Part shown: positions 3,401-42,895 of the stretch, piece by piece
How positions within the stretch are numbered: position 1 is the first letter of the stretch
Layout of the letters: each line of letters opens with the position of its first letter
Source: an uncultured Clostridia bacterium
GTDB taxonomy: Bacteria > Bacillota > Clostridia > TANB77 > CAG-508
NCBI GenBank assembly: GCA_934101145.1
Contig: CAKOPZ010000001.1
Location: forward strand, 5,279-69,278
Direction of reading: 5' to 3'
DNA: 64,000 bases
Notes under the pieces: model-generated
What the model was told of the DNA's origin: nothing
The model's database searches: none
The model's input: the letters and a program-made list of their open reading frames with translations, nothing else
Program-made: the position numbers and the translations under genes

Positions 3401-3655
3401 TCATCTAATAGAAAGTAATTCTTTGGAAGTCTGAAATTTCTTTTTTGGATATGGGATGGGTTCGTCAGTTCTGTATAAAAGGTAATCGATGCTTGTATGA
3501 TAATAATCAGCAAGTGATGACAATATCTCTAATGGGATACTTCTTTTATTTATTTCGTAATATGAATAGGCAACTTGTGATATATTAAGCATTTTGCTTA
3601 ATTGTTTTTGAGTAAGATCGTGATCTTCTCTTAGACTTTTTAGACGAGTTTCCAT
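3401..3655 (-). CDS. XRE-family helix-turn-helix transcriptional regulator
   Basis: 84 aa. N-terminal HTH_3 pattern (LKSLREDHDLTQKQLSKMLNISQVAYSYYEINKRSIPLEILSSLADYY). Divergent from the pilin-like locus. Confidence 0.85.
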   Translation of the reverse strand: METRLKSLREDHDLTQKQLSKMLNISQVAYSYYEINKRSIPLEILSSLADYYHTSIDYLLYRTDEPIPYPKKKFQTSKELLSIR

Positions 3656-40965: not shown

Positions 40966-41811
40966 ATGAAAAATAAAAAAGTGTTTATATATTTAAAAGA
41001 ATATATGATGATTGTGGTTGGTTGCATACTTATGGCAATTGGTACATCCTTGTTTTTACTTCCAAACCAGCTTTCATCAGGAGGATTTGCTGGTATTGCA
41101 ACAATTATATATTATTTATTTAAATTTCCACTTGGAGCAGTTATGCTTGTTTTAAATATACCATTATTTATAATTGCTTTTGTTCGAGTTGGAAAAGAGA
41201 CTACAATAAAAGGAATATTTGGAACAGTAATGTTATCAACTTTTATTGATATAGTTGATAAATATAAGCCACTTACAGAAGATAGAATACTTGCATGTGT
41301 ATATGGTGGAATATTTATGGGAATTGGAACTGCAGTTGTTTTGAAAGCAAATGCTTCAACAGGTGGAACTGATATGCTTTCATATATTATACGTTCGTTT
41401 TTTCCACATTTTAGGTCAGCAAATTTGATTGTTGTAATTGATATAATAATTGTTTTACTAAATGTACTTGCTTTTAGAGAGGTTGAAATAGGATTGTATT
41501 CGGCTATTGCAATTTATATTATGGGAAAAATGATTGATATAATTTTTGAGGGTGTGTATTTTACAAAAAGTATGTTTATTGTGTCAAATAAATATAAAGA
41601 AATTGCAGATGAAATTGGAAAAAAGCTATGTAGAGGAAGTACAGCAATTTATGCAAAAGGAATGTATTCAAAGGAAAAGAAAATGATGCTATGGTGCGTA
41701 GGTTCTAGGACAGAAACAGCTAAAATAAAGGAAATTGCAAAAGAAATTGATCCAAGTGCTTTTATTGTTATTTCAAATGCACGTGAAGCATGGGGAAAAG
41801 GGTTTAGATAA
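40966..41811 (+). CDS. YitT-family membrane protein (DUF2179 C-terminal domain)
   Basis: 281 aa. Multi-TM N-terminal part and a C-terminal soluble domain ending ...AFIVISNAREAWGKGF, typical of YitT/DUF2179 proteins. Confidence 0.75.
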   Translation: MKNKKVFIYLKEYMMIVVGCILMAIGTSLFLLPNQLSSGGFAGIATIIYYLFKFPLGAVMLVLNIPLFIIAFVRVGKETTIKGIFGTVMLSTFIDIVDKYKPLTEDRILACVYGGIFMGIGTAVVLKANASTGGTDMLSYIIRSFFPHFRSANLIVVIDIIIVLLNVLAFREVEIGLYSAIAIYIMGKMIDIIFEGVYFTKSMFIVSNKYKEIADEIGKKLCRGSTAIYAKGMYSKEKKMMLWCVGSRTETAKIKEIAKEIDPSAFIVISNAREAWGKGFR

Positions 41812-41885
41812 ATGTGTATTGAGAGTATATATATTGGAATATAGAGGAAACTAACGAGATAATTCATATAAAATAAAAAAATGTG

Positions 41886-41914
41886 TTGAAATTGTTATTT
41901 GGATATGTTATTAT
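41886..41914 (+). promoter_or_regulatory. Sigma-A-type promoter candidate for the ToxI-like repeat/toxN operon
   Basis: TTGAAA (41886-41891), 17 nt, TATTAT (41909-41914). AT-rich context, so a chance match is possible. Confidence 0.35.
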
Positions 41915-41978
41915 ATATATATTAGTAATAGATTTATATAATATGAATATAATATTATTACTATATTAAGAAAAAGCT

Positions 41979-42086
41979 TAGAATACCCTTGCTAAAGTAG
42001 GGACTTAAAAAAGTAGGAATACCCTTGCCAAAGTAGGGACTTAAAAAAGTAGGAATATCCTTGCCAAAGTAGGAACTTAAAATAGT
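41979..42086 (+). ncRNA. ToxI-like type III antitoxin RNA: three tandem 36-nt repeats
   Basis: Units at 41979-42014, 42015-42050 and 42051-42086 (consensus AGGAATACCCTTGCCAAAGTAGGGACTTAAAAAAGT; 3 mismatches in each outer unit). They are contiguous with no spacers, and lie directly upstream of a terminator and a ToxN/AbiQ-family gene. Confidence 0.8.
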
Positions 42087-42089
42087 AGT

Positions 42090-42117
42090 GTGACTGTTTT
42101 ATAGCAGTCACATTTTT
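42090..42117 (+). terminator. Intrinsic terminator between the RNA repeats and the toxin gene
   Basis: GTGACTG (42090-42096) pairs with CAGTCAC (42105-42111), then ATTTTT. This is the position characteristic of type III TA loci, where it sets the antitoxin:toxin ratio. Confidence 0.7.
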
Positions 42118-42131
42118 AATATGGAGGAAAT

Positions 42132-42608
42132 ATGAAGAATTTAAAGATCTATTATATAGATGAAAAATATATTAATTATTTACGAAAATATGATAAAAAT
42201 GTTGCATATAATAAGGATACAACAAGACCATATATAGGAATAGTATATACATATAATCATTTTAATTATTTTGCTCCATTATCATCTCCAAAATTAAAAC
42301 ATAAGAAAATAAATGAAAAAGCTATTGATATATTTAAAATAAAAGGTGGAGAGCTAGGTGTTATAAATATAAATAATATGATACCAACACCGATAGAGGA
42401 ATTAACAGAGGCATTACCAATTATAAAAGATATAAAATATAAAAAAATGTTAGAAGAGCAACTTACATATATAAATAATCATAAACAGGAATTATTAAAA
42501 AAAATAATACTATTTCAGAATATGTATAGAAAAGGTCATCTAAATAATAGAATTTTAGAGAGATGTTGTGACTTTAAATTATTAGAGGAACTTTGCAAAA
42601 AATATTAA
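42132..42608 (+). CDS. toxN: Type III toxin-antitoxin system ToxN/AbiQ-family endoribonuclease toxin
   Basis: 158 aa with RBS GGAGG. Family hallmarks: N-terminal YYIDEKYINYLRKYDKNV, RPYIGIV, YFAPLSSPKLKH, NMIP, YKKMLEEQLTYI, and C-terminal CDFKLLEE. Confidence 0.85.
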   Translation: MKNLKIYYIDEKYINYLRKYDKNVAYNKDTTRPYIGIVYTYNHFNYFAPLSSPKLKHKKINEKAIDIFKIKGGELGVININNMIPTPIEELTEALPIIKDIKYKKMLEEQLTYINNHKQELLKKIILFQNMYRKGHLNNRILERCCDFKLLEELCKKY

Positions 42609-42620
42609 AATAATATTTTA

Positions 42621-42648
42621 AGAGACAGTTTTTAAGCTGTCTTTTTTT
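42621..42648 (+). terminator. Terminator candidate after toxN
   Basis: AGACAG (42623-42628) pairs with CTGTCT (42637-42642), followed by a T-run. Confidence 0.5.
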
Positions 42649-42895
42649 AATATACTAGGAAATAAAAAATTTCCTAGCATATTAAAATGCTACAATCGCT
42701 ATTGCCTTTGATTTAGTTGGAAACTCAAATCGGCGAGAACAAAAGGCAACTTACGTGGATTTGTTCATAAAATTACAAACAAATATCAATCTGTTCGCTA
42801 GACAAAAAGGTTAAATAAGTTTATACTATTAGTTATAGGAAATGAGGATAAAAAATCATAAATTTTAAACATTGTAAGATATATAAGAGGAAAAT

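What the first reader, a model, noticed from the sequence alone, without database searches (positions are those of the whole stretch)
41886..42650. Complete type III toxin-antitoxin (ToxIN/AbiQ-like) abortive-infection module with a new 36-nt RNA repeat
Three contiguous 36-nt direct repeats (41979-42086) are followed by a short intrinsic terminator (42090-42117). Then comes a 158-aa ToxN/AbiQ-family protein (RBS GGAGG, ATG 42132) with its own terminator. This is the canonical architecture of type III TA systems, in which the toxin endoribonuclease processes the repeat transcript into antitoxic RNA units. ToxI of Pectobacterium also has 36-nt units. The A-rich tract CTTAAAAAAGT in each unit is a plausible cleavage site, since ToxN-type enzymes cut in A-rich motifs. 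The ~1.1-kb module is inserted between yitT-like and ogg, both core-type genes. Only 3 repeats are present, and the outer two each differ from the central unit at 3 positions.
Basis: partly seen in the sequence, partly recalled or inferred. Interest (0 to 1): 0.6.

Follow-up and report, generated by a model that had tools for sequence, protein, structure and literature searches.

The report
Ordinary ToxIN RNA-protein toxin-antitoxin cassette
This is a complete, well-preserved copy of a known kind of bacterial toxin-antitoxin and probable anti-phage module (ToxIN/AbiQ family), in which a small folded RNA repeat holds an RNA-cutting toxin in check; it is a clean new example in an uncultured gut Clostridia bacterium, not a new kind of system.

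Summary
In order, the locus has a promoter-like site, a leader hairpin and three 36-nt direct repeats. A terminator follows, then a 158-aa ToxN/AbiQ gene with its own terminator. The protein is a full-length ToxN: Pfam PF13958 gives 138 bits against a cut-off of 25, and PADLOC calls it AbiQ. The predicted fold matches four solved ToxN/AbiQ structures at TM 0.80-0.84. The S-S-P-K active-site motif is present and dN/dS is 0.05-0.15. The repeat is not a new RNA class. It fits the published ToxI group I pseudoknot template, and compensatory changes support both stems (99.4% of cells paired; 0 of 500 shuffles reach the covariation score). It gives in-register but sub-threshold hits to Rfam ToxI. 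Thirteen further loci from other gut Clostridia genomes carry the same unit type. Repeat length, copy number and toxin length lie near the published toxIN family means. The nearest relative has an empty yitT-ogg site. The insert is 954 bp, not about 1.1 kb, and it is composite: the ToxIN cassette plus a decayed copy of a roughly 130-nt dispersed element that sits after terminators. Verdict: a new member of a known kind, of low interest.

The parts
41808..41812 (+). Left junction pentamer ATAAA, which includes the yitT stop codon. The same pentamer recurs at the right junction.
   Evidence: Alignment with the empty site of G003. G003 has one copy where the window has two.
41886..41914 (+). Sigma-70-type promoter-like site: TTGAAA, 17-nt spacer, TATTAT, with an extended -10 TG.
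   Evidence: 10 of 12 matches. Related cassettes have their own near-consensus promoters at the same position.
41923..41963 (+). Leader hairpin between the predicted transcription start and unit 1.
   Evidence: Inverted repeat I12. The fold is -8.4 kcal/mol, z = -2.2. A hairpin at this position is present in all 17 loci folded, with differing sequences.
41979..42014 (+). ToxI-like unit 1, a conserved variant. The pseudoknot pair is A41980-U41993 where other units have G-C. Stem 2 is CCCU/AGGG (41986-41989 with 41999-42002).
42015..42050 (+). ToxI-like unit 2. Stem 1 is GG 42016-42017 with CC 42028-42029. Stem 2 is CCCU 42022-42025 with AGGG 42035-42038. An A6 run lies at 42043-42048.
   Evidence: Rfam ToxI matches 42011-42044 in register at 20.7 bits.
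42051..42086 (+). ToxI-like unit 3. Stem 1 is GG 42052-42053 with CC 42064-42065. Stem 2 is UCCU 42058-42061 with AGGA 42071-42074. The terminal A-run is shortened to AAAA-T (42079-42083).
   Evidence: Rfam ToxI matches 42047-42080 at 21.5 bits.
42087..42119 (+). Intrinsic terminator between the array and the toxin gene: a 12-pair stem plus a T-run.
   Evidence: A hairpin plus T-run is present at this position in every related cassette, with a different stem sequence in each.
42123..42127 (+). Ribosome-binding site GGAGG.
   Evidence: Sequence.
42132..42608 (+). toxN gene: a 158-aa ToxN/AbiQ-family endoribonuclease toxin with Ser51-Ser52-Pro53-Lys54.
42620..42648 (+). Intrinsic terminator of toxN.
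42647..42766 (+). Decayed copy of a ~130-nt dispersed intergenic element. It has a palindrome at 42645-42687 followed by nested stems. It is not part of the TA cassette, but it forms the right end of the insert.
   Evidence: (I5). It is 78% identical to the consensus and has an 11-nt deletion.
42767..42771 (+). Right junction pentamer ATAAA.

Best explanation
This is a functional ToxIN-family type III toxin-antitoxin cassette. The following is shown from sequence. A promoter drives a transcript that starts with a leader hairpin and carries three 36-nt ToxI-like units. A terminator after the array lies in front of a full-length ToxN/AbiQ gene. Each unit can fold into the H-type pseudoknot of the ToxI template: stem 1 GG/CC and stem 2 [U/C]CCU/AGG[A/G], with loops of 4, 2 and 5 nt. 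The following is inferred from the characterised systems ToxIN of P. atrosepticum, ToxIN of B. thuringiensis and AbiQ. Most transcripts stop at the internal terminator, so the RNA is made in excess over the toxin. ToxN cuts the precursor inside the A-runs between units. Each processed 36-nt pseudoknot binds two ToxN monomers head to tail and blocks their active sites in a closed 3:3 complex. When the supply of the short-lived RNA fails, for example on phage infection or loss of the cassette, free ToxN cuts cellular and phage RNAs at A-rich sites and growth stops (abortive infection and/or addiction). The cassette was acquired horizontally into the yitT-ogg spacer of this lineage.
For: Protein: Pfam ToxN_toxin scores 138 bits (cut-off 25) over profile positions 1-159 of 159, and PADLOC AbiQ scores 130 bits. 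Solved structures match at 7e-18 (4ato), 4e-17 (2xd0) and 1e-13 (4glk). The AlphaFold model has pLDDT 82.6, and its top four Foldseek hits are ToxN/AbiQ at TM 0.80-0.84, with CptN at 0.61. S52, P53 and K54 are invariant in 16 homologues, and Ser51 corresponds to AbiQ Ser51 and ToxN Thr52 (PMC5086642). dN/dS is 0.05-0.15 at dS of about 0.9-1.1. RNA: the ToxI-template pseudoknot has 99.4% of cells paired, 3 of 6 pairs with changes on both sides, and a covariation score of 0.383 against 0.190 in shuffles (0 of 500 reach it). Slid controls give at most 0.146. The competing minimum-free-energy register has no compensatory change and 15 broken cells. More distant arrays have stem 2 sequences that are all different and all complementary. 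Within the units, the window and its closest relative differ only at 42022 and 42038, the two sides of one stem pair. The array is 90-95% identical between cassettes whose toxN is about 80% identical. Rfam ToxI aligns 1-34 of 34 in register with units 2 and 3. Architecture: promoter and two terminators. Unit length, copy number and toxin length (36 nt, 3.0, 158 aa) sit near the toxIN means of 38.1, 2.8 and 168 (PMC3401426 Table 2). The A-run matches the A/AAAA and A/AAA specificities (PMC5086642). Acquisition: the empty site in G003, other contexts in other genomes and a patchy distribution, 12 of 41 relatives.
Against: The Rfam ToxI score of 21.5 bits is far below the gathering score of 50. 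Stem 1 is only 2 bp long, and its covariation rests mainly on the difference between unit 1 and units 2-3, which is inherited across loci, so independent events are few. Folding one unit alone is not better than shuffles (z = -0.6 to -1.2), as expected for a short pseudoknot that the program cannot model. A role in phage defence is inferred from family members only.
Confidence: 0.88

Rival explanations
1. It is the same ToxIN cassette, but its selected role here is stabilisation of itself or its neighbourhood (addiction), and it does not act in abortive infection against phages.
For: ToxIN of B. thuringiensis promotes plasmid retention (PMC4615649 title and abstract). The cassette behaves as a small selfish mobile unit that sits in different contexts in a spacer that holds other TA-like cassettes in relatives. 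The genome carries at least two ToxN systems.
Against: Characterised ToxIN of P. atrosepticum, AbiQ and TenpIN all abort phage infection (PMC5086642). The two roles do not exclude each other, and nothing in the sequence separates them.
Confidence: 0.25
2. It is an inactive relic: the toxin no longer cleaves RNA, or the array no longer neutralises it.
For: Some related loci are decayed. L015 and L016 have truncated toxins with the arrays kept, and L024 has a single unit. The A-run after unit 3 is interrupted (AAAAT).
Against: The ORF is full length with invariant motif residues, and selection is strongly purifying. Differences between units preserve the structure. The 1087-nt locus is identical, with 0-1 differences, in five contigs from other samples.
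Confidence: 0.05
3. The repeats act at the DNA level, as iterons or operator sites for a regulator, and do not act as an RNA antitoxin.
For: Tandem direct repeats next to a promoter can be protein-binding sites.
Against: Compensatory base changes preserve RNA pairing, which DNA-binding sites do not require. The array lies downstream of the promoter and upstream of a terminator. It always occurs together with ToxN, and the cassette holds no DNA-binding gene.
Confidence: 0.02

Closest known systems
ToxIN of Bacillus thuringiensis pAW63 (PDB 4ATO; ToxI of 34 nt x 2.9)
   Same: It is the best sequence match among solved structures (7e-18). The Rfam ToxI consensus, which is 34 nt long like this system's unit, aligns in register with the units. 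It has about 3 units, comes from a Gram-positive host, and cleaves at A/AAAA, which fits the A6 run here. The promoter-array-terminator-toxin order is the same.
   Different: The unit here is 36 nt, not 34. The proteins are about 27-30% identical. This cassette is chromosomal, not plasmid-borne. Unit 1 is a conserved sequence variant, and a leader hairpin precedes the array.
AbiQ/antiQ of Lactococcus lactis pSRQ900 (PDB 4GLK; 35 nt x 2.8)
   Same: PADLOC names the toxin AbiQ at 130 bits. The catalytic position is Ser, as with AbiQ Ser51. Copy number and A-rich cleavage (A/AAA) are similar.
   Different: The repeat sequence differs. The match to the solved structure is weaker (1e-13). AbiQ has a proven abortive-infection phenotype, and nothing has been tested here.
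ToxIN of Pectobacterium atrosepticum pECA1039 (PDB 2XD0/2XDD; 36 nt x 5.5)
   Same: The unit length of 36 nt is the same. It is the best fold match (TM 0.83). The T/S-S-P-K motif and the H-type pseudoknot template are shared.
   Different: This locus has 3 units, not 5.5. The Tyr29-containing insertion of the Pectobacterium ToxN is absent (alignment). That enzyme cleaves at AA/AU, and no such motif lies between the units here.
CptIN of Eubacterium rectale (PDB 4RMO)
   Same: It is also a type III system of gut Clostridia, with the same gene order.
   Different: The fold match is only TM 0.61. CptI units are 40-48 nt long (PMC3401426 Table 2). This locus is not a member.

Membership tests
ToxIN family (type III TA) | The toxin belongs to the ToxN/AbiQ protein family. 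| tested here: met
   PF13958 scores 138 bits against a cut-off of 25, over the full-length profile. PADLOC AbiQ matches. PDB ToxN/AbiQ chains match at 1e-13 to 7e-18.
ToxIN family (type III TA) | ToxN fold: a twisted beta core with a long kinked helix. | tested here: met
   The AF2 model has pLDDT 82.6. Its top four Foldseek hits are 2xd0, 7d8o, 4ato and 4glk at TM 0.80-0.84. This rests on a predicted model only.
ToxIN family (type III TA) | Active-site motif (Thr52/Ser53/Lys55 of ToxN from Pectobacterium; Ser51 of AbiQ). | tested here: met
   Ser51-Ser52-Pro53-Lys54 align to T52-S53-P54-K55. S52, P53 and K54 are invariant in 16 homologues. The residue roles come from PMC5086642.
ToxIN family (type III TA) | A tandem array of direct repeats upstream on the same strand (family range 31-62 nt, 1.9-5.6 copies). 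| tested here: met
   36 nt x 3.0. The ranges are from PMC3401426 Table 2.
ToxIN family (type III TA) | A Rho-independent terminator between the array and the toxin gene. | tested here: met
   42087-42114 plus a T-run. It is conserved in position, with different stems, in all related cassettes.
ToxIN family (type III TA) | The unit fits the ToxI H-type pseudoknot template: two nested 3-4 bp stems and loops of 3-4, 1-2 and <=7 nt (group I). | tested here: met
   The loops are 4, 2 and 5 nt. Pairing is 99.4%, with compensatory changes in both stems. Stem 1 is only 2 bp here. The template is from PMC3401426 section 26.
ToxIN family (type III TA) | A match to Rfam ToxI (RF02519) at the gathering score. 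| tested here: not met
   The scores are 20.7 and 21.5 bits against a gathering score of 50, although the matches are full length and in register. According to the 2012 survey, ToxI sequences vary greatly in length and sequence between toxIN loci (PMC3401426).
ToxIN family (type III TA) | The toxin processes the precursor RNA at an A-rich site into single units. | not testable with these tools
   A6 runs lie between the units (sequence). Cleavage itself was not observed.
ToxIN family (type III TA) | The toxin inhibits growth and the cognate RNA neutralises it. | not testable with these tools
   This needs expression assays.
ToxIN family (type III TA) | The array is transcribed. | not testable with these tools
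Only a promoter-like site is available.
CptIN family | CptN-type toxin and 40-48-nt units. | tested here: not met
   CptN 4rmo matches at TM 0.61, E = 1e-2, below the ToxN hits. The unit is 36 nt.
TenpIN family | TenpN-type toxin and 39-57-nt units. | tested here: not met
   The only Pfam family hit is ToxN_toxin. The unit is 36 nt.

The most novel reading that the evidence does not exclude
In these small-genome gut Clostridia, type III TA cassettes may belong to a pool of recombinase-free units, each running from promoter to terminator. Such units would insert into the short spacers just after housekeeping genes and leave short target duplications. Three observations prompt this: the ATAAA pentamers here, an 18-nt terminator duplication in L043, and a reported 26-nt duplication at the CptIN cassette of this genome. 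In different species the yitT-ogg spacer holds ToxIN, a DUF4160/DUF2442 pair, a cassette encoding a small hydrophobic peptide, or a membrane-protein gene. In addition, the position-specific unit variants (unit 1 with A-U and C-G where units 2-3 have G-C and U-A, conserved across cassettes about 20% diverged) and the conserved leader hairpin could have distinct roles in RNA stability or in the order of complex assembly.
Probability: 0.2. Interest if true: 0.45.

Novelty: new member of a known kind. Interest (0 to 1): 0.2.

Why it matters
It adds a well-documented ToxIN example from an uncultured, small-genome gut Clostridia lineage. The natural covariation supports the ToxI pseudoknot without a crystal structure. 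An exact empty-site comparison shows recent acquisition. It does not change what is known about type III systems. Two side observations may deserve separate attention: the dispersed element that sits after terminators, and the variable yitT-ogg spacer.

Tried and rejected
2) The minimum-free-energy hairpin register CUUGC/GUAGG from single-sequence folding was rejected. It has no compensatory change and 15 broken cells, and it would consume the GCC needed for the pseudoknot that is conserved in all distant arrays. 3) A new RNA class was rejected. The unit aligns in register with Rfam ToxI and fits the published template. 4) I looked for this repeat in the supplementary table of Blower 2012, but no supplement is held. 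5) Plasmid and phage collections gave only ~68% partial toxN matches to already annotated ToxN/AbiQ genes, and no carrier of this cassette. 6) I looked for an intermediate state with ToxIN but without the dispersed element. All contigs with the identical toxin have the same layout. 7) A systematic link between the dispersed element and ToxIN cassettes was rejected, because the element is absent next to all other cassettes. 8) Rfam gave nothing near threshold for the dispersed element. 9) TRF found nothing at the second ToxN array, but the direct-repeat finder did.

Full report
OBSERVATION. Tandem Repeats Finder gives a 36-nt period with 3.0 copies, 94% matches and score 188 at 41981-42088. The direct-repeat finder gives three copies spaced 36 and 36 nt. 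Unit 1 differs from unit 2 at positions 1, 2 and 15, and unit 3 differs at positions 8, 24 and 33, so there are exactly three differences each. A 12-pair hairpin with a T-run follows at 42087-42114, and a second terminator lies at 42620-42645 after the ORF. The scan finds three terminator-like sites where shuffles give 0.3 +/- 0.6. GGAGG lies at 42123-42127, and the ORF 42132-42608 encodes 158 aa. The finding's start coordinate, 41886, is the -35 hexamer of a promoter-like site: TTGAAA, 17-nt spacer, TATTAT, with an extended -10 TG.

THE PROTEIN. The ORF matches Pfam ToxN_toxin (PF13958) at 138 bits against a cut-off of 25, over profile positions 1-159 of 159. It matches PADLOC AbiQ at 130 bits. 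Among solved structures it matches only ToxN of B. thuringiensis (4ato, 7e-18), of P. atrosepticum (2xd0, 4e-17) and of E. coli (7d8o, 1e-16), plus AbiQ (4glk, 1e-13). An AlphaFold model built on 16 homologues has pLDDT 82.6. Its four best Foldseek hits in the PDB are those same four proteins at TM 0.80-0.84. CptN (4rmo) follows at TM 0.61, and then come CcdB/MazF-type toxins at non-significant scores. In the alignment, the motif L-S51-S52-P53-K54 lies over L-T52-S53-P54-K55 of the Pectobacterium enzyme. [quoted passage not shown] S52, P53 and K54 are invariant in 16 homologues of 63-92% identity. Against eight related cassettes, dN/dS is 0.05-0.15 at dS of about 0.9-1.1. The gene is therefore an intact ToxN-subfamily toxin under purifying selection. 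It is neither CptN nor TenpN.

THE RNA. Rfam has no match above threshold. Its ToxI model (RF02519, 34 positions) nevertheless aligns end to end (1-34 of 34) and in register with units 2 and 3, at 20.7 and 21.5 bits against a gathering score of 50. Blower et al. 2012 (PMC3401426, section 26) describe the ToxI template as two nested 3-4-bp stems separated by loops of 3-4 nt, 1-2 nt and a variable loop, which is <=7 nt in group I. Unit 2 reads GG (42016-17), AAUA, CCCU (42022-25), UG, CC (42028-29), AAAGU, AGGG (42035-38), then ACUU and the A6 run. The loops of 4, 2 and 5 nt fit group I. I collected 42 distinct units from the window and 19 related loci. On the 26 distinct units of the window type (alignment A2), this pseudoknot has 99.4% of cells paired. 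Three of its six pairs have changes on both sides: pair 7-20 is G-C in 16 units and A-U in 10, pair 13-29 is U-A in 15 and C-G in 11, and pair 15-27 is C-G in 24 and U-A in 2. The covariation score is 0.383 against 0.190 +/- 0.022 in shuffles, and none of 500 shuffles reaches it. Slid controls give at most 0.146. The rival register preferred by single-sequence folding has no compensatory change and breaks in 15 cells. Cassettes with more distant toxins (41-65% identity) have stem 2 sequences that are all different and all complementary: CCCA/UGGG, CCUA/UAGG, UCCAG/UUGGA, CCUCA/UGAGG, GUCAA/UUGAC, UUCA/UGAA and GCUUA/UAAGC. In each, the loop keeps a free (G)CC opposite a 5' GG. Within the units, the window and its closest relative (L043, toxin 92% identical) differ only at 42022 (C/U) and 42038 (G/A), the two partners of one stem pair. 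The array is 90-95% identical between cassettes whose toxN is about 80% identical, so the RNA is under stronger constraint than the protein. One caveat applies. The contrast between unit 1 and units 2-3 is inherited across loci, so the number of independent events is smaller than the cell counts suggest. The cross-type comparison and the window/L043 pair supply the independent events.

HOW IT MOST LIKELY WORKS. The shown steps are the promoter, the leader hairpin (41923-41963), three pseudoknot-forming units separated by A-runs, the terminator, the RBS, toxN and its terminator. The rest is inferred from ToxIN of P. atrosepticum and of B. thuringiensis and from AbiQ (PMC3401426 introduction; PMC5086642). 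The internal terminator sets an excess of RNA over toxin. ToxN cuts the precursor in the A-rich linker; the published specificities are AA/AU, A/AAAA and A/AAA, and the A6 run here fits the latter two. Each 36-nt pseudoknot bridges two toxin monomers and blocks their active sites in a triangular 3:3 complex. Loss of RNA supply frees the toxin. The last A-run is interrupted (AAAAU at 42079-42083), so unit 3 may stay attached to the terminator hairpin. That would resemble the 2.8-2.9 copies counted for antiQ and for ToxI of B. thuringiensis. Whether the selected role here is abortive infection, addiction or both cannot be told from sequence.

CONTEXT AND ORIGIN. The genome is 1.26 Mb, about 28% G+C and 99.8% complete. 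It belongs to uncultured gut Clostridia and has a second ToxN gene outside the window. The nearest genome, G003, has Ogg 97% and YitT 99% identical to the window's and has no ToxN. Its yitT-ogg spacer is about 120 nt. Alignment puts the insert at 41813-42766 (954 bp), with ATAAA at both junctions and one copy in G003. Most same-genus genomes have short spacers, so insertion is more parsimonious than deletion in G003. Even so, a 5-nt repeat in A+T-rich DNA is weak evidence for a target duplication. Related cassettes lie in other contexts: none of L003-L016 is next to yitT or ogg, and the 92% relative lies between a 571-aa ORF and a U32 peptidase gene. Similarity between cassettes runs only from about the -10 region or leader to the toxN stop (41903/41918 to 42605/42612). 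ToxN homologues occur in 12 of 41 relatives. The locus is identical, with 0-1 differences in 1087 nt, in five metagenome contigs from other samples. The last ~120 nt of the insert (42647-42766) are not cassette DNA. They are a decayed copy (78% identity, 11-nt deletion) of a ~130-nt dispersed element with 18 copies of at least 60 nt in this genome and many in G003, G023 and others. The element is not next to any other ToxIN cassette, so the adjacency is particular to this lineage.

COMPARISON WITH WHAT IS KNOWN. Blower et al. [quoted passage not shown] Their Table 2 gives toxIN family means of 38.1 nt (range 31-62), 2.8 copies (1.9-5.6) and 168 aa. This locus has 36 nt, 3.0 copies and 158 aa. 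That survey already lists many toxIN loci in Clostridia. The nearest annotated DNA matches in the plasmid and phage collections are ToxN/AbiQ genes at about 68% identity over a quarter of the query. All sequence-level membership features are met except the Rfam gathering score. The functional features could not be tested. The locus is therefore a new member of a known kind.

VERDICT. The repeat is a divergent ToxI, not a new RNA. The insert is 954 bp and composite. Confidence that this is a functional ToxIN-type TA cassette is 0.88. Interest is 0.2.

Noticed in passing
window 42647-42766; also G000 C2:96717-96846, C5:31938-32068, C3:54971-55099, C19:13666-13794 and others: A ~130-nt dispersed intergenic element with 18 copies of at least 60 nt in this 1.26-Mb genome and many in same-genus genomes. 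It has three hairpin modules: a 19-bp palindrome TATATACTAGGAAAT...ATTTCCTAGTATATA, a central nested stem, and a 3' GCGAC-CUAAA-GUCGC hairpin. It has no ORF and no terminal inverted repeats. In 12 of 18 copies it lies directly after the terminator T-run of a co-oriented gene. No Rfam family matches it. Some pairs are compensatory.
   Followed up: partly
G000 C1:116540-117250 (outside the window; locus L001): A second ToxN gene (PF13958, 140 bits; about 39-42% identical to the window's toxin). It has its own promoter, leader palindrome and terminator, and an array of three degenerate long units spaced 58 and 53 nt with a 27-nt conserved core. Blower 2012 mentions a few ToxI units of about 60 nt that could not be aligned to the template.
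   Followed up: partly
window 41923-41963 and the equivalent position in L001, L003-L016 and L021-L027: A hairpin lies between the -10 box and the first unit in all 17 cassettes folded. The sequences differ and fall into two length classes. In 14 of 17 the fold is better than at least 95% of shuffles. It may be a 5' stabiliser of the precursor RNA or an operator. I did not come across such a leader hairpin in the passages of the two type III papers read here (PMC3401426, PMC5086642).
   Followed up: partly
yitT-ogg spacers of L035, L036, L040, L041: The same spacer holds other small cassettes in same-genus genomes. L035 has a promoter plus a 40-aa hydrophobic peptide. L036 and L040 have a DUF4160 + DUF2442 gene pair (68 and 59 bits). 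L041 has a 147-aa membrane ORF on the opposite strand. The spacer looks like a hotspot for small accessory modules.
   Followed up: partly
L043 about 2690-2712 and 3497-3520: The ToxIN cassette with the 92%-identical toxin is flanked on both sides by the same hairpin sequence, AGGAGCATAATGCTCCTT, which looks like a duplicated host terminator. An earlier unverified note reports a 26-nt target duplication at a CptIN cassette of this genome.
   Followed up: no
L024, L015, L016, L003: L024 has only one ToxI unit in front of an intact-looking toxin. L015 and L016 keep the array, but the toxin match is truncated to residues 1-61 and 1-28. L003 has a second ToxN homologue about 2 kb upstream of the first.
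   Followed up: no
homologues P0008, P0025, P0034, P0067 (alignment A3, column of Ser51): Four close homologues have Ala at the position equivalent to AbiQ Ser51 and ToxN Thr52, while S52-P53-K54 stay invariant. This is unexpected if that residue is essential for catalysis.
   Followed up: no
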